Below, in pieces: positions 28,557 through 58,425 of a DNA stretch of 64,000 nt. The translations under genes and the position numbers were made by a program. Source of the DNA: Candidatus Poseidoniales archaeon (GTDB lineage: Archaea > Thermoplasmatota > Poseidoniia > Poseidoniales > Thalassarchaeaceae); contig JAPOFX010000001.1 in assembly GCA_028283505.1 (NCBI GenBank), forward strand, positions 137,127-201,126, written 5' to 3'. The number at the start of each line of letters is the position of its first letter. The first letter of the stretch is position 1. The notes beneath the pieces are model-generated. The model ran no database searches, had not been told where the DNA came from, and saw nothing but the letters and a program-made list of their open reading frames with translations.

Positions 28557-29136
28557 GAAATCTGTCAACATCATCTTTCGTGTCTACATTTAGGTGCAGA
28601 AATCTATCATCAACAGGGATTCTTTGAGGGTAAATTACTTTGTTGAGTGGGATATCTGAAGGAGATTTTAGAATTCTGTTACAATCCTCTTCTGAAATCA
28701 GAAGCGGGTGCCCACCCCTTCCGTCAAATGTGGGGCATGTACTGGAAACTTTGCTCATAAGAAACTCGACAGTAGCCTTCGAGAAACCAGGCCTATCAAC
28801 CGGTACGATCAGAATTCTATCGGGCCCTCCAGAGTCCATTTTGAGGAATTTCAGACCTTCTTTGACAGTGCCCGTCCTCCCTGACTCAGGAGAGTAATTA
28901 ATGATGACCTCAATGTCACCAACTGATTCCTTAACTTTTTGATAAAGCTCATTTCTGGTCACAACGACGGGCGACAGTCCCAGCTCGGTTAACCTTCTAG
29001 AGATCCATGAAACTAGTGTTTCCTCTCCTACTTCAATCAGAGCCTTTGGATACCCAAGCCTACTGCTCTCTCCCGCGGCTAGAACTATACAACCAATTTC
29101 TGTCTCACTTATTTTCACGAAGCATCTCTCTTCCAA
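28534..29136 (-). CDS. mocA: MobA-like NTP transferase, probable molybdenum cofactor cytidylyltransferase (MocA)
   Basis: N-terminal IVLAAGESSRLGYPKAL nucleotide-binding motif. About 200 aa. Located in a molybdenum-hydroxylase neighbourhood. The start overlaps the ACAD stop by about 30 nt and is uncertain. Confidence 0.65.
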   Translation of the reverse strand: MEERCFVKISETEIGCIVLAAGESSRLGYPKALIEVGEETLVSWISRRLTELGLSPVVVTRNELYQKVKESVGDIEVIINYSPESGRTGTVKEGLKFLKMDSGGPDRILIVPVDRPGFSKATVEFLMSKVSSTCPTFDGRGGHPLLISEEDCNRILKSPSDIPLNKVIYPQRIPVDDRFLHLNVDTKDDVDRFLRAVEFL

Positions 29137-30259
29137 TAATCAGCCTCTGAATCTGGCTTGACCCTTCAAAAATCTGAACGACCTTTGCACCCCTCATCCT
29201 TCTGGCCACTGGGTACTCCTCTGAGTAGCCATAGCCCCCAAAAATCTGAACAGCATCAGTTGTAACCTCCATCGCCATGTCTGCTGCAAACCTCTTGGCA
29301 TGTGCAGCTTCCAATGTATTCCTGTGCCCCGCGTCACACTTCAGGGCCGCTCTCCAAGTCAGGAGTCTAGCCGCATCGATCTTTGTTGCCATATCTGCTA
29401 GCATGAATGATACAGCCTGATGTTTGAAGATCGGTTTACCGAAAGCACTCCTATCTGTTGAGTATGCGACAGCTTCCTCGAGGGCACCTCTAGCATTGCC
29501 AACCGCATGGGCAGAAATGGTAGGCCTCGAGAAATCAAAGGCTTTCATGGCGTTCATCCAACCTCCATTCTCCTCCTCACCGATGAGATTTTCCACTGGT
29601 ACTCTTACGTCATTGAATGTCACAGAGCGCGTGTCTGAACATCTTTGACCCATATTTTCCTCCTTCTTTCCAAGTTCTATTCCAGGGGAATCAGCATCAA
29701 CGATGAAACCACTCATTCCTTTGTAGCCAGCACTCTTGTCAGTGTATGCTAGAACGAAAAACCAATCAGCATATCCCGCCCCAGTTATCCACATCTTGCT
29801 ACCATTGATGATATACTCGTCACCATCCTTCACGGCCTCGGTTTTGATTGATTGAACATCGCTACCCGCTCCTGGCTCTGTAACGCAGTATGACGCAATG
29901 CATCCTTCAGTAACCTTGGTCATGTAACGCTCCTTCTGATCTTCTGTACCTCCGGTCAGAATCGGGTATGAAGCAAGCATTGTACTTCCACACGCAGTGG
30001 CGAATCCTGGGTCGCCAGCCCCGAACTCTTCGCAAACCAGAACCTCTTCGAAAGAGCCCATGCCACCGCCACCGTATTTTTCGGGGATCTTCAGAGTTAG
30101 AAGTCCGAACTCATTGGCTTTCTTTATTGCCTGCCTAGGAAACTCACTCGTACTGTCCCATTTACCAGCATTTGGTTTCACTTCCTCTTCAGCAAAATCT
30201 CTGGCAAGTTGCTGAAGCATGCGTTGTTCCTCGCTCAAAACAAAGTCGACCATGAGCAT
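29105..30259 (-). CDS. Acyl-CoA dehydrogenase (short/branched-chain type)
   Basis: ACAD N-terminal pattern LSEEQRMLQQLARDFAEEEV, middle-domain CVTEPGAGSD and C-terminal IFEGSSQIQRLIIGR carrying the catalytic Glu. Confidence 0.85.
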   Translation of the reverse strand: MLMVDFVLSEEQRMLQQLARDFAEEEVKPNAGKWDSTSEFPRQAIKKANEFGLLTLKIPEKYGGGGMGSFEEVLVCEEFGAGDPGFATACGSTMLASYPILTGGTEDQKERYMTKVTEGCIASYCVTEPGAGSDVQSIKTEAVKDGDEYIINGSKMWITGAGYADWFFVLAYTDKSAGYKGMSGFIVDADSPGIELGKKEENMGQRCSDTRSVTFNDVRVPVENLIGEEENGGWMNAMKAFDFSRPTISAHAVGNARGALEEAVAYSTDRSAFGKPIFKHQAVSFMLADMATKIDAARLLTWRAALKCDAGHRNTLEAAHAKRFAADMAMEVTTDAVQIFGGYGYSEEYPVARRMRGAKVVQIFEGSSQIQRLIIGREMLRENK

Positions 30260-31247: not shown

Positions 31248-34109
31248 CTAACTGCATGATCTTAGTATGTGGCGGTAGACTAAATCTGGGGTTGGGATGG
31301 TATGGTCCTCCAAGGTCGGAGAAAATGGAACAGGAGTATCTAGGGCGCCAAGGACGACTGGTGTTGACTCTAAACTCCAGAAGGATTGCTCAATTACCCT
31401 GCTGCTTATGGTATGTCCAAGTCCGCCTGTCCACTGGGCCTCTTGCAGGACTATCATCCTGCCAGTCCTTTTCACAGAGTCAATGCAAGTTTTTTCATCA
31501 AAAGGTTGTATAGTCCTCAAGTCTATCACCTCAACCTCAAATCCATCTTTTGAAGCCATTCTGGAGGCCTCTAACGCAACATGAACCATTGCTCCCCAGG
31601 AGATAATAGTCAGGTCGCTGCCCCCTCTGACTATTCGAGCCTTACCAATTGAAAGATTGCCTGAGGATACTCTGTCTTTCACAGACTCAGTATCTACTAT
31701 CTGATTAATCGAGGTTCCCCACCCTGTTTTACCTCCTCTGAGCCCATAGAGTCCTATGTGTTCCAAGAAAAGGACTGGATCGGGAACCGAATGCCCCTCT
31801 ACCAGTAAGTCATATGCGTCCTGGGGATTGCTTGGGAAGGCGATAACTAGTCCAGGGTCATTTGTGAACCATGATTCAATCATATTCGCATGAAATGGCC
31901 CACTCCGGGTCTTCGCTCCCAATGGAATCCTAACAGTGAGCGGTACGTCAGCCCCCCACCTCCATCGTAGCTGAGCGGCATTGTTGATCAATGGATTCAT
32001 GGCCAGTGCCGCGAAACCTCCAAACTGAATTTCGGCCATTGGCTTCATTCCTCCTAATGCAGCCCCCGTGGCAGAATGAATGATTATAGCTTCCGAAAGT
32101 GGCATATCCAGAAGTTTTGATTGGTGCCCTCTAGCCTTCAATGGAAGATTCATTCCGAATGCTCCAGCAATTTCCATATCCTCTCCCATGAATACTACCT
32201 CGTCCCCGTAAATTTCTGCTATCTCAACCATAGCATTTTGGATAGATCTGCTGAATGTCCAAGAATTAGGAGCATCCGAGAAGACCAACGCCTCTTCACC
32301 AGGTCCCAAGAGAGGTTCTGTACCACTCCTATCGCTGTTCAAATCAGTAATCTGTTGCGAGTGACTTCGTGCATCGATCAGACTAGTGACTCCTTCTCCT
32401 ACGGAATGCCCCTCGGGCCATGGCATAGACTCCATGTCATCCCTGCAAGATTTCACCATTTCCCTTTCCTCCTCCTCGATTAATGAGATGACTTTCTCAC
32501 TGCATCCCATCCGAATTAACAACTCTCTATGATTCGGAAGAGGGTCCTTATCTGCCCAGTAACTTAGTAATTCCTTGTCTACATATCCAGGGGGATTTCC
32601 AGAAACGGATCCAAGGTAGAGATCGTCATGATGGTGAGCATGCCCACATCCTCTCATGGTCTCGACATGAATCAATGTTGAACCTCCTCCAGATAGGGCA
32701 ATCTCTCTGGCAACGGAGGTGGATGCGTAGAATTGAGCTGGGTCGGAACCGTCTATGCTCCATGAGGGAATTCCCATTGAGATTCCTTTATCTCCAAAAG
32801 TTTCAGCTCCCGATTGCCCCAAAACAAACGTATCCAGAGCTATCTGATTATTCTGAATCATGTAGCAGATTGGAAGGCCACGAGTACCTGCCAAATTCAT
32901 AGCCTCCCAAAATTCACCGCTACTGCTGCAACCCTCGCCAACCGGGGCCAGATGGAACCTGGATTTACTCAATCTTTGGGCGGCCAATGCTATGCCGGTC
33001 GTGGTAGCACTCGCTGTGGGGAGAGGAGCAGTTGGGGGGAGGACCCTTTTTCCCCAGTTCCCGATATGTAAATCGCGTCCTCCAGACCCAGGGTTGCCAC
33101 CATCCATGTAAGAATCCGCCTTCCCCATCTGCGCTGCAAACACTTCAGTAGGAGTTTGTCCCATGGCCATTGCCAAACCCGTGTCTCTGATCATCGGCGC
33201 GATGACATCTGCACTATCAATTTCCGACTCCGGCAGATCTATGGCTCTGGACATAGCTGAAGCACAAGCTACAACCCCCTCTTGCCATGTAGACCTAAAC
33301 CCCTTGCCTGTGAATTTCCCACCATCAGGAGTCTCCAATCCATTCGTAAACAGGTCTTTCAAGTGTTCATCTACAATCCTTGTTCTGGTCATCCACCTTT
33401 GCCACATTATTCTTTGGTCAAGAGTAACCGAGTGATAATGCGCAATTCTACGCAAGCAAATTCTCAGGTCGACAATAAGTCTGGTAATTCTCCGTGAAAT
33501 GTGGGAAGACCCATTCCTTCTAGGGATAATCTCTATTTCCTGAATCCCAATTAAATTTGGCTCCAACAATCTCTGAGACAGGATGTCCGCCATTTTTTCC
33601 TCGAATCTCAAACTAAATGAATGGTATGAATCGCCGTCAAAAAGTTCGGGAGGTGATGAAGACTCCCAGCACATCGCAACCGTATCCAGGTAACCCTCAT
33701 TTCTCTCAGATACGAATCTTAGCAATTCAGTACGAACCTTTTCCGAAGCTATTTTACTTGGGAAACTCAAGCCCTCCTCCGGCCTCCATTGGTTTGCGAA
33801 TATTGGCACAAGTCCAGATTGCCCCTCGTCCCTAATCTCGCCATTTTTACCTATGATCGTCCCTGAATTGGATTCGTCTCTAGCTAGGACCTCTTTCATG
33901 AGGGCATAATCATCAAGCTTCATCGACCTTTCCCAGATATCAACGGAGCCCCTCCTGCCTTTACCGGAAGGGGACCTGTCCAATGTCGCCCTTACCCTCT
34001 CCCCACAACTTATGCAACTTCTATCAAGCTTGGAGGTAGAGACACTCCTAACCTTCCAAATCTGGTGCTTCTCACATTTCGGACATTTCCACAAACCCTG
34101 ACGTCCCAT
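31248..34109 (-). CDS. Fused 2-oxoacid dehydrogenase E1 component (alpha+beta) with a ~230-aa N-terminal zinc-ribbon-containing domain
   Basis: N-terminus CPKC-x19-CISC. The E1-alpha ThDP region covers GRDLHIGNW .. GEGCSSSGEFWEAMNLA .. YMIQNNQIA. The E1-beta region covers VVFMGEDMEIAGAFG..LLDMPLSEAII..AEIQFGGF. 953 aa in one frame. Confidence 0.8.
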   Translation of the reverse strand: MGRQGLWKCPKCEKHQIWKVRSVSTSKLDRSCISCGERVRATLDRSPSGKGRRGSVDIWERSMKLDDYALMKEVLARDESNSGTIIGKNGEIRDEGQSGLVPIFANQWRPEEGLSFPSKIASEKVRTELLRFVSERNEGYLDTVAMCWESSSPPELFDGDSYHSFSLRFEEKMADILSQRLLEPNLIGIQEIEIIPRRNGSSHISRRITRLIVDLRICLRRIAHYHSVTLDQRIMWQRWMTRTRIVDEHLKDLFTNGLETPDGGKFTGKGFRSTWQEGVVACASAMSRAIDLPESEIDSADVIAPMIRDTGLAMAMGQTPTEVFAAQMGKADSYMDGGNPGSGGRDLHIGNWGKRVLPPTAPLPTASATTTGIALAAQRLSKSRFHLAPVGEGCSSSGEFWEAMNLAGTRGLPICYMIQNNQIALDTFVLGQSGAETFGDKGISMGIPSWSIDGSDPAQFYASTSVAREIALSGGGSTLIHVETMRGCGHAHHHDDLYLGSVSGNPPGYVDKELLSYWADKDPLPNHRELLIRMGCSEKVISLIEEEEREMVKSCRDDMESMPWPEGHSVGEGVTSLIDARSHSQQITDLNSDRSGTEPLLGPGEEALVFSDAPNSWTFSRSIQNAMVEIAEIYGDEVVFMGEDMEIAGAFGMNLPLKARGHQSKLLDMPLSEAIIIHSATGAALGGMKPMAEIQFGGFAALAMNPLINNAAQLRWRWGADVPLTVRIPLGAKTRSGPFHANMIESWFTNDPGLVIAFPSNPQDAYDLLVEGHSVPDPVLFLEHIGLYGLRGGKTGWGTSINQIVDTESVKDRVSSGNLSIGKARIVRGGSDLTIISWGAMVHVALEASRMASKDGFEVEVIDLRTIQPFDEKTCIDSVKRTGRMIVLQEAQWTGGLGHTISSRVIEQSFWSLESTPVVLGALDTPVPFSPTLEDHTIPTPDLVYRHILRSCS

Positions 34110-34265
34110 GATAAGCTCCTAAATAGTCATAGTACAACAATTATTCGCATTACTATGTCTATTTATACCACTATTAATCTAAGTTTTCAATATTTGCAAT
34201 GATTATCATGGAAAATTACAATATAAACCATAATTAAACGTTATACTGAATGCTATTATACCGTT

Positions 34266-56382: not shown

Positions 56383-58425
56383 ATGGAACATCCACTATTG
56401 CAGTCTTATGGCCCATTGGAGGGTTGGCACATACTGCTCGCAATCGGGGTCGTCTCGATTGGTTTCTTCAGTTATCAGGTTCAGAAGGCAACTAGGCTGG
56501 TCATGTTAGGATCATCCGACAGTAGGTTTGACTCTTGGAGTATCAGAATCAAAGAGTTCATTTCAGGATGGTTGTTCCAGAAAAAAGTCCTCAGAGATAA
56601 GGTTGCAGGGATAATGCATGTTCTGATGTTCTGGGGATTCCTCATGCTATCGACAGACATGTTTGATCTAGCGACTGCAAATGCATTCTCTGATAAGGTA
56701 CTTCCAGAAATCATAGTCGGGCCTTGGAATGGGATGGTTGAGCTGGGATACTTTATGGCCCTGATTGGCTGCGTCAGCGCACTTACTCGCAGAGTGGTAT
56801 TCACACCAGAGAAACTCAAGGGAAAGTCCCAGCTAGAAGGTAATGCCATACTGTTGCTGATATTTACGATTACCACCACCTCATTCATGGTCGAGTCCGC
56901 AGAGTCGCCAAGTGCCTTTTGGGAACCAATAGGATATTGGTTTTCGGAACGAGGTCTTTCAGAACAGACAGTAATACTATCTTATTGGGCTCACATGCTG
57001 GCAATCTCAGTTTTTCTTTTCTTGATTCCACTCTCAAAACACATGCATCTCGTGATGGCAGTTCCGAACGTCTTCTTTCATGACGCTGGTCCAATGGCAA
57101 GAATGAGGCCCTTGGCAATTGGAGATGATGGAAAGGCTGTTCCTCTGGAAGATCTCGATATAGACTCCTTCGGAGTTAGTACATACAATCAGTATTCATG
57201 GAGGCAACTAATCGACGGATGGTCATGCACGTCGTGTGCTAGGTGTCAGGATGTTTGTCCCGCATATGCATCAGGAAAGGGACTCAATCCCATGCAGGTT
57301 ATCCACGATGTCAGAAACTACGCGAATGAGCATGCCCCAATTCTTCTTTCAGGGAACCAGCCCGAAGAAACAATTCTTGAGAGGATTACAGAAGAGGCTG
57401 TTTGGGCATGCACAACCTGCAACGCTTGCGTGGATGTCTGCCCACTGTACATTGAACACGTTCCAAAGCTCACAGATCTCAGGAGAAATGCGATGATGGA
57501 AACCATGGAGTATCCAGAAGTACTCAACACTGCCATGGGCAACATAGAGTCTGCATCTAACCCATACGGCTTTGGTGCGCATGAGAGAGCAGATTGGGCC
57601 TCTGACTTGGGAGTGAAAATTGGCGAGCCAGCAGAGTACATCTACTTCGTTGGTTGCGCGGCAAGCTTCGACGAGAGGAATCAGAAAGTAGCAAGGTCGA
57701 CAATATCCCTTCTCAAAGAAGCAGGACTCGATGTGGGAATTCTTGGTATGCAAGAAGGATGCTCTGGGGATCCAGCTAGAAGAGCGGGCAACGAGTATCT
57801 CTTCCAAATGCTGGCGGAGACAAACATGTCGACGTTCCAAGAATTAGGAGTCAAGAGAATTGTGGCTTCATGCCCCCATTGTTTCCACACGCTGGGCAAG
57901 GAGTATGGAGACTTCGGAGGAGATGATCTGGAGGTTTTCCATCACTCTGAAATTATAGCAAAGCTACAGAAGGAAGGAAAGCTCCCAGAGGCAGAGAAGA
58001 ATGGACGGTCAATCACTTTCCATGATCCATGCTACTTGGGAAGGATTGGAGATATCTTGGATGCCCCAAGATCGGTCATTGGAGGGGTCGACAAAGAAAC
58101 CGAAAGGCATGGCAAAGACTCATTCTGCTGTGGTGCGGGAGGGGCCCAAATGTGGATGGAGGAAGATGCTGATAAGAGAGTAAATGAGATTCGAGCAGCA
58201 GAGATTGCCGAGACTGGTTGCGACACCGTGGCTGTAGGCTGTCCTTTCTGCTCCGTAATGGTAAAAGATGGCTTAGACGCTGTCGGAGCTGATATGGAGG
58301 TCCTTGACGTTGCTGAACTACTCTGGGAACAGATCGTGGCTAGGGATTTGGAGATTCATGATAAGACCAAAAACAGAACAGGAAAAGCCAGGATCTGGAA
58401 ATCATCACTATCGGACCTTGTTTGA
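56383..58425 (+). CDS. Membrane-anchored Fe-S oxidoreductase: N-terminal 5-6 TM domain, two [4Fe-4S] ferredoxin motifs, two CCG (HdrD/GlpC-like) domains; EtfD/HdrD-like
   Basis: TM region at residues ~10-250. Ferredoxin motifs CTSCARCQDVCP and CTTCNACVDVCP. CCG-domain motifs VGCAASFD..CSGDP, CPHC and FHDPCYLGR..CCGAGG. The ATG at 56383 is preferred over the ORF-track start at 56302. Confidence 0.75.
   Translation: MEHPLLQSYGPLEGWHILLAIGVVSIGFFSYQVQKATRLVMLGSSDSRFDSWSIRIKEFISGWLFQKKVLRDKVAGIMHVLMFWGFLMLSTDMFDLATANAFSDKVLPEIIVGPWNGMVELGYFMALIGCVSALTRRVVFTPEKLKGKSQLEGNAILLLIFTITTTSFMVESAESPSAFWEPIGYWFSERGLSEQTVILSYWAHMLAISVFLFLIPLSKHMHLVMAVPNVFFHDAGPMARMRPLAIGDDGKAVPLEDLDIDSFGVSTYNQYSWRQLIDGWSCTSCARCQDVCPAYASGKGLNPMQVIHDVRNYANEHAPILLSGNQPEETILERITEEAVWACTTCNACVDVCPLYIEHVPKLTDLRRNAMMETMEYPEVLNTAMGNIESASNPYGFGAHERADWASDLGVKIGEPAEYIYFVGCAASFDERNQKVARSTISLLKEAGLDVGILGMQEGCSGDPARRAGNEYLFQMLAETNMSTFQELGVKRIVASCPHCFHTLGKEYGDFGGDDLEVFHHSEIIAKLQKEGKLPEAEKNGRSITFHDPCYLGRIGDILDAPRSVIGGVDKETERHGKDSFCCGAGGAQMWMEEDADKRVNEIRAAEIAETGCDTVAVGCPFCSVMVKDGLDAVGADMEVLDVAELLWEQIVARDLEIHDKTKNRTGKARIWKSSLSDLV

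What the first reader, a model, noticed from the sequence alone, without database searches (positions are those of the whole stretch)
31248..34109. Orphan fused E1 alpha/beta 2-oxoacid dehydrogenase with a novel ~230-aa N-terminal zinc-ribbon domain
Seen in sequence: a single 953-aa frame contains an E1-alpha ThDP-binding region, from ~aa 230, and an E1-beta region (VVFMGEDMEIAGAFG..DMPLSEA..AEIQFGGF). These are preceded by ~230 residues (nt ~33420-34109) with no E1 similarity. That N-terminal region begins with a four-Cys ribbon, CPKC-x19-CISC (nt ~34005-34085). No E2 (lipoyl acyltransferase) or E3 gene is adjacent. The flanks are a Ca antiporter and, across a 156-bp AT-rich spacer, moeB. Established knowledge: E1 alpha and beta are normally separate polypeptides encoded with E2/E3. 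Fused alpha/beta forms exist in some bacteria. Inference: the N-terminal domain could be a regulatory, nucleic-acid-binding or partner-docking module. It might replace the E2 peripheral-subunit-binding interaction or link the enzyme to another acceptor such as ferredoxin. With the ACAD (29105-30259) and the EtfD-like protein (56383-58425), this suggests a branched-chain amino-acid catabolic route.
Basis: partly seen in the sequence, partly recalled or inferred. Interest (0 to 1): 0.6.

Follow-up and report, generated by a model that had tools for sequence, protein, structure and literature searches.

The report
Fused E1 enzyme with zinc-ribbon head
A Marine Group II ocean archaeon carries a second, single-chain E1 enzyme of a 2-oxoacid dehydrogenase whose front end is a basic zinc-ribbon borrowed from tiny circular virus-like elements, with matching repeat sites before the gene, so the enzyme may switch its own gene on and off (untested).

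Summary
Window 31248-34109 (-) is one 953-aa ORF: Zn ribbon, disordered linker, helical module, E1-alpha, E1-beta. It is not an assembly artefact, because more than 100 independent assemblies carry the same frame.

It is "orphan" only by position. The same genome has a complete lipA-E1a-E1b-E2-E3-lipB operon on another contig. All 36 Poseidoniales genomes sampled for this have both the fused E1 and a separate beta-type E1 match.

The roughly 230-aa N-terminus has two layers:
- **Helical module (aa ~119-227):** found across the order and only there.
- **Basic Zn ribbon (aa 1-62, pI 10.3):** gained once in a Thalassarchaeaceae subclade. It is homologous to 85-140-aa proteins of 4.3-4.9-kb circular virus-like elements.

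Those elements carry pairs of GAATWGTGG sites upstream of the ribbon gene. The E1 gene of every ribbon-bearing lineage carries a conserved array of TAATTGTGGTRAA-type repeats in its AT-rich upstream spacer. Orthologues without the ribbon have none.

Best reading: an active E1 that shares the single E2/E3, plus a captured DNA-binding head that autoregulates the gene, like PutA or RbkR. DNA binding, substrate and E2 use are untested. The ferredoxin and branched-chain-pathway ideas have no support. Earlier agents of this scan reached similar conclusions in sister genomes.

The parts
31248..34109 (-). Whole gene: 953-aa fused protein (Zn ribbon, linker, helical module, E1-alpha, E1-beta); stop codon at 31248-31250
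33924..34109 (-). Module A: basic zinc ribbon, aa 1-62 (C9, C12, C32, C35; RVRATLDRSPSGKGRR). Five-strand sheet, pI 10.3, net charge +9
   Evidence: AF2 pLDDT about 85; charge; stand-alone homologues P0164-P0199; present only in one clade
33756..33923 (-). Helix aa 67-82 followed by a variable, acidic, disordered linker (aa 83-118)
   Evidence: pLDDT below 50 for aa 83-104, and the columns vary between orthologues
33429..33755 (-). Module B: Arg-rich helical bundle, aa ~119-227. Found across Poseidoniales and fused to E1-alpha. Orthologues without the ribbon start at M-x-QGDLP, equivalent to aa ~96
   Evidence: pLDDT about 90; no fold or profile match
32310..33428 (-). E1-alpha part (aa ~228-600) with ThDP motif G391-E392-G393-x26-N420-N421 (nt 32847-32939), H348 and H490, plus lineage-specific insertions (aa 258-264, 289-300, 496-506)
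31251..32309 (-). E1-beta part (aa ~601-953) with E673 (ThDP N1' activation), H740 and E914 (aligned to Glu285-beta of G. stearothermophilus E1)
34256..34265 (-). Repeat S1 (AACGGTATAA), degenerate in this genome; invariant GGT at 34260-34262; it starts right after the moeB stop codon
   Evidence: alignment A6
34223..34236 (-). Repeat S2 (TAATTATGGTTTAT); invariant GGT at 34227-34229; 33 nt after S1
34163..34176 (-). Repeat S3 (TAATAGTGGTATAA). This is the only perfect match to the repeat consensus in the 64-kb window. It overlaps a TATA-like TATAAATA
34130..34147 (-). Block CGAATAATTGTTGTACTA, highly conserved across genera. It contains a fourth, degenerate repeat S4 (TAATTGTTGTACTA) 33 nt after S3. 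The exact 18-mer occurs once in the genome
34116..34120 (-). Shine-Dalgarno-like AGGAG, ending 7 nt before the ATG
   Evidence: similar GGAG in most orthologues

Best explanation
The gene encodes a second, single-chain (alpha-beta) E1 component of a 2-oxoacid dehydrogenase. It is specific to Poseidoniales (Marine Group II archaea).

**Shown**
- The E1 body keeps the ThDP-binding and catalytic residues.
- It always co-occurs with a separate beta-type E1 match, which in this genome is the canonical E1a/E1b/E2/E3 operon.
- The N-terminus has two layers. An Arg-rich helical module is found across the order. A basic zinc ribbon was added once, in a subclade of Thalassarchaeaceae.
- The ribbon is homologous to a small protein encoded by 4.3-4.9-kb circular virus-like elements.
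- Those elements and the E1 upstream spacer share direct repeats with the core AATWGTGG, arranged in pairs 33-39 nt apart.

**Inferred**
- The enzyme is a homodimer equivalent to alpha2-beta2. It decarboxylates a 2-oxoacid of unknown identity and passes the acyl group to the lipoyl domain of the genome's only E2.
- The zinc ribbon is a sequence-specific DNA-binding head that was captured together with its operator.
- The two heads of a dimer bind a pair of repeats. The pair next to the promoter (S3/S4) overlaps the TATA region, so the enzyme represses its own transcription. Substrate or cofactor state might modulate this, as in the trigger enzymes PutA, BirA and archaeal RbkR.
- The role of the helical module is open. 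A docking or oligomerisation surface is my guess.
For: **Identity and integrity**
- The ORF is intact in the 120 relatives listed of 1016, nearly all 951-997 aa.
- GEG-x26-NN, H348, H490, E673 and H740 are invariant in 22 sequences.

**Partners**
- The lipA-E1a-E1b-E2-E3-lipB operon lies on C20.
- This E2 is the only PF00198 match in the genome.
- 36 of 36 Poseidoniales genomes have the fused E1 plus a separate beta-type E1 match.

**Two layers**
- Residues 97-234 match in both families of the order; 105 of 151 class genomes match some part of aa 1-235 and the other families have none. Residues 1-95 match in only six genera.
- Orthologues without the ribbon start at M-x-QGDLP.
- Ribbon bearers form one clade with 98/98 support.

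**Ribbon properties and origin**
- pI 10.3 on a protein whose E1 parts have pI about 5.
- Stand-alone homologues exist.
- Three of their contigs are demonstrably circular: unit 4316 bp (L031), 4590 bp (L029) and about 4504 bp (L045). Two are IMG/VR viral genomes.

**Shared cis motif**
- Five distinct elements (six contigs) have a pair of GAATWGTGG(G/C/T)G-type sites 36-39 nt apart upstream of the ribbon gene block; in two of them one site of the pair departs from the core.
- All 12 aligned ribbon-bearing E1 genes have three invariant GGT cores inside TAATTGTGGTRAA units, plus a conserved fourth unit.
- Five orthologues without the ribbon have GC-rich upstream regions with no visible repeat array.
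- In this window the only perfect site is S3, and three of the 26 matches lie in one 114-nt stretch on one strand.
- In 24 genomes, 5 of the 9 strict pair matches in ribbon-bearing genomes fall exactly upstream of the E1 gene.
Against: - DNA binding, the transcription start site and repression are therefore all inferred.
- The ribbon and the repeats could co-occur only because they arrived in one insertion event.
- In this particular genome, S1 and S2 have drifted from the consensus (ACGG and TATGG instead of TGTGG).
- The weak fold matches of the ribbon are to the rRNA-binding ribosomal protein eS27 and the MCM Zn domain, at E >= 0.28. RNA binding is therefore not excluded.
- Use of E2 is inferred from co-occurrence and retained residues. 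The Mg-ligand Asp is Glu, and there are insertions next to the active-site loops. The best NCBIfam hits are far below the PDH E1 cut-offs.
Confidence: 0.5

Rival explanations
1. The zinc ribbon is not a DNA-binding regulator. It binds RNA or another protein, for example the ribosome, the E2 core or a nucleoid protein. A different transcription factor reads the conserved upstream repeats.
For: The only weak fold resemblances are to the rRNA-binding zinc ribbon eS27 and the MCM N-terminal Zn domain. Basic zinc ribbons commonly bind RNA. No direct evidence of DNA binding exists.
Against: The same AATWGTGG core, arranged in pairs, lies upstream of the homologous stand-alone genes in five unrelated circular elements and upstream of every ribbon-bearing E1 gene aligned; orthologues without the ribbon show no such array. 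It is hard to see why a host factor's sites would follow the ribbon into mobile elements.
Confidence: 0.2
2. The fused E1 works outside any E2/E3 complex, as a free ThDP decarboxylase or carboligase or with a non-lipoyl acceptor. Its N-terminal helical module replaces E2 docking.
For: The gene is never next to E2 or E3 in the loci examined. It has GEG instead of GDG, a His-rich GHAHHHDD loop with an 11-residue insertion, and other insertions near the active-site entrance. It is at most 35% identical to canonical E1s and falls below all NCBIfam E1 cut-offs.
Against: The equivalents of His291-alpha and His146-beta', which I recall as needed for reductive acylation of lipoyl-lysine in human BCKDH (PDB 1OLS title), are invariant as H490 and H740. 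E914 aligns with Glu285-beta of the PSBD-binding face in G. stearothermophilus E1 (its role is from memory). The gene always co-occurs with a separate beta-type E1 match.
Confidence: 0.2
3. The zinc ribbon is a neutral passenger: a remnant of an integrated mobile-element gene that fused in frame and has no function.
For: It was gained once. Orthologues without it appear to manage. In this genome two of the four repeats have decayed.
Against: The four Cys and the RxRxTLDRSxSGxGR motif are kept across genera whose N-terminal 245 residues are only 36-51% identical, with no stop or frameshift in more than 100 assemblies. Non-coding repeats and an 18-nt block are conserved across genera.
Confidence: 0.07
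4. The N-terminal region is a separate upstream gene joined to the E1 gene by an assembly or sequencing error.
For: None found.
Against: The same continuous frame appears in the 120 listed relatives and in 12 genomes of several genera. The linker varies in sequence but stays in frame.
Confidence: 0.01

Closest known systems
Heterotetrameric (alpha2-beta2) E1 of pyruvate and branched-chain 2-oxoacid dehydrogenase complexes (G. stearothermophilus 1W85/3DUF, T. thermophilus 1UM9, human BCKDH 1DTW)
   Same: Same three Pfam domains. The beta part aligns with 1W85_B/3DUF_B at E about 7e-51. The model superposes on E1-beta chains with TM about 0.8. The ThDP motif spacing, the activating Glu and both catalytic His are kept.
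   Different: Alpha and beta form one chain. GEG replaces GDG. There are insertions near the active-site loops and about 227 extra N-terminal residues. The gene is not encoded with E2/E3. Scores are far below the NCBIfam equivalog cut-offs.
Single-chain 'dehydrogenase E1 component subunit alpha/beta' of bacteria and haloarchaea (e.g. Arthrobacter WP_236822115; named KEGG K11381 in earlier notes)
   Same: Alpha-beta fusion in the same order and a similar core length of about 690-720 aa.
   Different: Only about 29% identical, so the fusion may be independent. The Arthrobacter gene sits next to a lipoyl protein. None of these has the helical module or the zinc ribbon.
Trigger enzymes: PutA (N-terminal ribbon-helix-helix), BirA, and archaeal RbkR (riboflavin kinase fused to a DNA-binding domain, PMC5397151)
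   Same: A metabolic enzyme carries a terminal nucleic-acid-binding-type domain on a flexible linker, with candidate operator repeats at its own promoter.
   Different: The DNA-binding fold would be a zinc ribbon of no described family. Binding and effector control are untested. The domain appears to derive from a mobile element.
Small zinc-ribbon proteins of 4.3-4.9-kb circular virus-like elements (IMGVR_UViG_3300030116_007090, IMGVR_UViG_3300022693_002781; P0164-P0199)
   Same: 31-37% identical to the ribbon part in the alignment. They share the same four Cys, the same basic R-x-R-x-x-LDR-x-PG-x-RGR motif, the following helix ending in RN, and the same AATWGTGG paired repeats upstream.
   Different: They are stand-alone proteins of 85-140 aa encoded on mobile genomes, not fused to an enzyme. 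Their function is also unknown.

Membership tests
2-oxoacid dehydrogenase E1, alpha/beta type | E1_dh, Transket_pyr and Transketolase_C domains above Pfam gathering scores | tested here: met
   120.6, 62.8 and 115.3 bits against cut-offs of 22, 27 and 25.9
2-oxoacid dehydrogenase E1, alpha/beta type | ThDP/Mg motif GDG-x(24-27)-NN | tested here: inconclusive
   G391-E392-G393-x26-N420-N421. The spacing and NN are kept. The Mg-ligand Asp is Glu in all 22 sequences.
2-oxoacid dehydrogenase E1, alpha/beta type | Beta Glu that activates ThDP N1', plus the alpha and beta catalytic His of reductive acylation | tested here: met
   E673, H490 and H740 are invariant and align with the G. stearothermophilus and canonical residues. 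Their roles are taken from established knowledge.
2-oxoacid dehydrogenase E1, alpha/beta type | Works with a lipoylated E2 and an E3 | not testable with these tools
   E2, E3, lipA and lipB are present in the genome on C20. Co-occurrence is 36 of 36. There is no adjacency and no assay.
PDH E1 alpha/beta equivalogs (NCBIfam TIGR03181, TIGR03182, NF008854) | Score above the curated cut-off | tested here: not met
   130 against 411, 100 against 394 and 183 against 454 bits
Single-chain E1 alpha/beta fusions | Alpha and beta in one polypeptide, alpha first | tested here: met
Single-chain E1 alpha/beta fusions | Common descent with the bacterial or haloarchaeal fused forms | tested here: inconclusive
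   About 29% identity to the Arthrobacter, Streptomyces and Halostella fused genes, no closer than to split E1s at 31%. No broad tree was possible.
Trigger enzymes (PutA/BirA/RbkR type) | Enzyme and DNA-binding domain in one chain | tested here: inconclusive
   A basic Zn ribbon on a disordered linker. The fold is not a recognised DNA-binding family.
Trigger enzymes (PutA/BirA/RbkR type) | Operator sites at its own promoter | tested here: met
   Four conserved direct repeats lie between the moeB stop and the ATG. The same core is shared with the elements that encode the homologous ribbon. These are candidate sites only.
Trigger enzymes (PutA/BirA/RbkR type) | Demonstrated DNA binding and effector-dependent regulation | not testable with these tools
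Described zinc-ribbon families (Pfam) | Match above the gathering score | tested here: not met
   No Pfam hit for aa 1-235. The stand-alone homologues give only sub-threshold hits to assorted Zn-ribbon models.

The most novel reading that the evidence does not exclude
This would be an archaeal trigger enzyme assembled by domestication. An ancestor of part of the Thalassarchaeaceae captured, from a tiny circular virus-like element, both a sequence-specific zinc-ribbon DNA binder and its paired AATWGTGG operator. The binder fused in frame to a central-metabolism E1. The dimeric enzyme would now read its own promoter and tune its synthesis to 2-oxoacid or ThDP status. That would be a new DNA-binding fold, and a metabolic sensor in one of the most abundant uncultured archaea of the surface ocean.
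Probability: 0.35. Interest if true: 0.75.

Novelty: new variant of a known kind. Interest (0 to 1): 0.5.

Why it matters
Poseidoniales are among the most abundant archaea of the surface ocean and have no cultured member, so how they regulate genes is essentially unknown. If this reading is right, four things follow:
- A conserved second E1 whose substrate could define part of their amino-acid or organic-acid use.
- A rare archaeal enzyme-regulator fusion.
- An undescribed zinc-ribbon DNA-binding family with a predicted recognition site that can be tested directly in vitro.
- A clear case of a gene and its cis element moving from a small mobile genome into a host metabolic gene.

The papers I searched and read on Marine Group II metabolism do not mention this protein.

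Tried and rejected
- **N-terminus, sequence searches.** Pfam and PDB for aa 1-235, and NCBIfam for the whole protein, gave nothing there. A profile of the stand-alone ribbons against PDB, PHROGs and Pfam gave only sub-threshold zinc-ribbon noise.
- **N-terminus, fold searches.** Foldseek against PDB gave no significant match; the best was E 0.28 to eS27. Against BFVD it found two unnamed viral proteins of 124 and 134 aa at E about 1e-3, probably members of the same small-protein family.
- **Helical module.** hhalign against this genome's canonical E1-alpha showed no homology.
- **Upstream spacer.** Rfam found no known RNA and no TPP riboswitch.
- **Phage GenBank.** tblastn with the ribbon and with P0165 gave no match.
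- **Tool limits.** The search for related loci with the ribbon alignment failed because the alignment is too divergent. The search for homologous proteins with aa 1-95 alone was too insensitive.
- **Chance hits discarded.** A second TTGTTGTAC/TGGTATAA pair on C21 lies inside a coding region. A weak ribbon-like hit in genome G128 is a TFB-like zinc ribbon, by my reading of the sequence. The 18-nt block has no counterpart in the circular elements.
- **Ideas rejected.**
  - An internal start producing an isoform without the ribbon is unlikely, because there is no Met near aa 96.
  - An ACAD/EtfD-linked pathway is not supported, because the ACAD is not syntenic in another genus.
Full report
**1. 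Observation**

The minus-strand ORF at 31248-34109 encodes 953 aa. The stop-to-stop frame is only three codons longer. An AGGAG lies 7 nt before the ATG, so the start is well defined.

Pfam finds E1_dh at aa 294-557, Transket_pyr at 621-788 and Transketolase_C at 822-942. Residues 1-235 hit nothing in Pfam or PDB, and the NCBIfam scan of the whole protein gave no match there.

The flanks are a Na/Ca exchanger and an acyl-CoA dehydrogenase downstream. Upstream, across a 156-bp spacer of about 31-34% GC, lies a ThiF+rhodanese (MoeB-like) gene.

**2. Not an artefact, and whose gene it is**

A database search returned 1016 relatives. The 120 listed are nearly all 951-997 aa, come from many independent assemblies, and where named are called Thalassarchaeaceae, Poseidoniales or Euryarchaeota MAGs. 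The linker between the ribbon and the rest varies in sequence but stays in frame. The "joined by sequencing error" refutation therefore fails.

**3. "Orphan" only by position**

In the window's own assembly (1.30 Mb, 89% complete), E2 (PF00198) and the E3 dimerisation domain (PF02852) match only on contig C20. E1_dh matches there, in the fused gene and weakly on C22.

Reading that locus shows lipA, E1-alpha (427 aa), E1-beta (341 aa), E2 (429 aa, with one lipoyl domain and a peripheral-subunit-binding segment by my reading), E3 (480 aa) and lipB in a row. The two other biotin/lipoyl-type domains in the genome lie in small open frames of 135 and 172 aa.

In a sample of the phylum, all 36 Poseidoniales genomes listed had the fused E1 at 61-79% identity plus at least one further match to the beta part. 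Other Thermoplasmatota had only split alpha/beta genes at 35% identity or less over both parts.

**4. Is the E1 body competent?**

Alignment with this genome's canonical E1-alpha, two bacterial E1s and solved structures shows the following:
- The ThDP motif spacing is kept: G391-E392-G393-x26-N420-N421.
- H348 is kept.
- H490 is kept. It is the "GH" of the phosphorylation-loop region, equivalent to His291-alpha of human BCKDH.
- E673 is kept. It is the PLSE motif, the ThDP N1' activator.
- H740 is kept. It is equivalent to His128-beta of G. stearothermophilus and His146-beta' of human BCKDH.
- All of these are invariant in 22 sequences.

The roles of these residues come from established knowledge of E1 enzymes. 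The two histidines are the ones named in the title of PDB entry 1OLS as acting in reductive acylation (seen).

Differences from canonical E1s:
- The Mg-ligand Asp is Glu in all members.
- The loop reads GHAHHHDD and is followed by an 11-residue insertion.
- There are three more insertions: aa 258-264, 289-300 and 339-342.
- All NCBIfam E1 models score far below their cut-offs.

My reading is an active but divergent E1 of unknown substrate.

**5. The N-terminus has two layers**

I searched 151 genomes of the class with aa 1-235.
- Residues ~97-234 match in both families of the order. In all, 105 of the 151 genomes match some part of the query, and the other families have no match. The matches lie in open frames of about 860-1000 aa.
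- Residues 1-95 match only in six genera of the window's own family.

Reading five orthologues without the ribbon shows that they start M-(S/A)-QGDLP-x-I-x-G-x-x-W-x-P, exactly at the equivalent of aa ~96.

An exhaustive HMMER search of 1.84 billion representatives with aa 1-235 found 79 proteins. By length and matched range most look like fragments of these E1s, and the ones I read were E1 fragments, small stand-alone ribbon proteins and one repeat protein that looks spurious (P0194). I did not read all 79. The helical module was seen only joined to this E1.

A maximum-likelihood tree of the E1 core places all ribbon bearers in one clade (98/98), with non-bearers outside. Two rows that my script labelled "noZnR" do have the ribbon; they only carry over-long gene calls. 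This means one gain.

**6. Structure**

| Region | AlphaFold2 result |
|---|---|
| aa 3-61 | five-strand sheet, pLDDT about 85 |
| aa 67-82 | helix |
| aa 83-118 | disordered stretch |
| aa 122-227 | helical bundle, pLDDT about 90 |

The full-length model has pLDDT 72 and pTM 0.76. The N-terminal model has pLDDT 77.

Foldseek of the N-terminal model against PDB finds nothing significant. The best hits are the zinc ribbon of ribosomal protein eS27 and the MCM N-terminal Zn domain, at E >= 0.28. Against predicted viral structures, two unnamed proteins of 124 and 134 aa match at E about 1e-3.

The helical module shows no profile similarity to the N-terminal arm of the canonical E1-alpha.

The ribbon has pI 10.3 and net charge +9 in 62 residues. 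The E1 parts have pI about 5.

**7. Origin of the ribbon**

The stand-alone homologues are 85-140 aa. They share the four Cys, the basic R-x-R-x-x-LDR-x-PG-x-RGR segment and the following helix ending in RN.

The longest contigs recorded for eight of the thirty listed family members are 4.3-4.9 kb.
- L031 is 1.55 copies of a 4316-bp unit.
- L029 has a 55-bp terminal overlap, giving a 4590-bp circle.
- L045 has a 144-bp overlap.
- Two of the elements are listed as viral genomes in IMG/VR.

Their other genes are small and unannotated. The exception is an 81-aa protein that resembles tail-fibre-assembly proteins.

**8. A shared cis motif: the main new test here**

In five distinct elements (L025, L027, L029/L030, L031, L044/L045) a pair of direct repeats lies upstream of the ribbon gene block, on the coding strand. 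The repeats read GAAT(A/T)GTGG(G/C/T)G and are 36-39 nt apart; in L044 and L045 one site of the pair departs from this core.

The upstream spacers of 12 ribbon-bearing E1 genes from several genera align. They show:
- three units of consensus TAATTGTGGTRAA, each with an invariant GGT;
- a highly conserved block, CGAATAATTGTTGTACTA.

A scan of the window shows that this block is itself a degenerate fourth unit, TAATTGTTGTACTA.

In window coordinates the four units are:

| Unit | Window coordinates |
|---|---|
| S1 | 34256-34265 |
| S2 | 34223-34236 |
| S3 | 34163-34176 |
| S4 | 34130-34143 |

They form two pairs, each spaced 33 nt. S3 overlaps a TATAAATA that could be the TATA box.

Controls and statistics:
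- S3 is the only perfect match to the unit in 64 kb.
- Three of the window's 26 loose matches fall in this 114-nt stretch on one strand. At the window-wide density, 0.02 would be expected there.
- The exact 18-mer block occurs once in the genome.
- The five orthologues without the ribbon have GC-rich upstream regions with no visible array.
- A divergent ribbon-bearing genus (L024) has a variant triple repeat, ATTATGTAAAAT.
- With a strict paired pattern in 24 genomes, 5 of the 9 matches in ribbon-bearing genomes are exactly the E1 upstream region. The eight genomes without the ribbon gave a single match, in a GC-rich stretch. This argues for a single-target, autoregulatory role rather than a regulon.

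In the window's own genome, S1 and S2 have drifted to ACGG and TATGG.

No Rfam family matches the spacer.

**9. Neighbourhood**

The order trxB - moeB - E1 - Na/Ca exchanger is kept in the ribbon-bearing genera. The ACAD is present in one (L032/L033) and absent in another (L034). The remaining neighbours are riboflavin and molybdenum-cofactor genes.

In the orthologues without the ribbon the upstream neighbour differs. There is no conserved functional operon, so the branched-chain-pathway inference has little basis.

**10. Explanation and rivals**

Best reading (0.5): a second, divergent but active E1 that uses the genome's single E2/E3. It carries a helical module of unknown role found across the order and, in one clade, a DNA-binding zinc ribbon captured from a small circular element together with its operator. 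The dimeric enzyme would bind the repeat pairs and repress its own promoter.

Rivals:
- The ribbon binds RNA or protein, and another factor reads the repeats (0.2).
- The enzyme works without E2 (0.2).
- The ribbon is a neutral passenger (0.07).
- Assembly artefact (0.01).

**11. Comparison and novelty**

It works like an alpha/beta-type E1 and meets the domain and catalytic-residue tests, but it fails the PDH equivalog cut-offs.

Fused alpha/beta E1s are known in bacteria and haloarchaea at about 29% identity; one sits next to a lipoyl protein.

The enzyme-plus-regulator idea has precedents in PutA and BirA, and in archaea RbkR (PMC5397151, found).

I found no paper that describes this protein.

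Earlier agents of this scan examined the same family in sister genomes and reached similar views. I reached the two-layer and circular-element results before reading those notes. I then tested their repeat-array claim and extended it to the elements.

Verdict: a real, conserved new variant of a known enzyme kind, with a testable and moderately likely regulatory twist.

Noticed in passing
L031 (1-6688), L029, L025, L044, L045: A group of 4.3-4.9-kb circular virus-like elements from metagenomes; two are IMG/VR UViGs. They carry about 8-10 small unannotated genes. These include the basic zinc-ribbon protein, a 144-aa protein that starts MARRRKKSRRRR, and an 81-aa protein resembling tail-fibre-assembly proteins. 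A pair of GAATWGTGGGG repeats lies in the main intergenic region. No recognisable Rep or capsid gene was found, and the host is unknown.
   Followed up: partly
G000 contig C20, locus L006 3437-9592: A canonical 2-oxoacid dehydrogenase operon is bracketed by lipoate genes: lipA, E1-alpha (with an N-terminal arm of about 95 aa), E1-beta, E2, E3, lipB, all on one strand.
   Followed up: partly
window 32591-32644 (aa 489-506): A His-rich loop, GHAHHHDD, is followed by an 11-residue insertion (LYLGSVSGNPP). It sits where canonical E1-alpha has the phosphorylation or lipoyl-entry loop. It is invariant or nearly so across the order, and might bind a metal or reshape the acceptor funnel.
   Followed up: no
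L024 1785-1984 (genome G014, a different genus): The most divergent ribbon-bearing orthologue has a 20%-GC spacer with three ATTATGTAAAAT units instead of TAATTGTGGT, and a diverged basic motif (RTRIMIHRSPTGQGR). This may be co-variation of the site and its reader.
   Followed up: no
window 34223-34265: In this genome and its nearest relative (L008), the two distal repeats S1 and S2 have lost the TGTGG core, while S3 and S4 are intact. Regulation may be weaker or altered in this lineage.
   Followed up: no
window 33429-33520 (aa 197-227) and 33345-33428 (aa 228-255): Two consecutive helices carry many conserved arginines (R198, R206, R207, R220, R221, R233, R238, R242 and R244 invariant; R210 nearly so) in all orthologues, including those without the ribbon. 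This is a strongly basic surface of unknown partner.
   Followed up: no
BFVD entries A0A345N471 and A0A345N4I4: Two unnamed viral proteins of 134 and 124 aa are the only significant fold matches to the N-terminal model (E about 1e-3). They are probably catalogued members of the stand-alone ribbon family.
   Followed up: no
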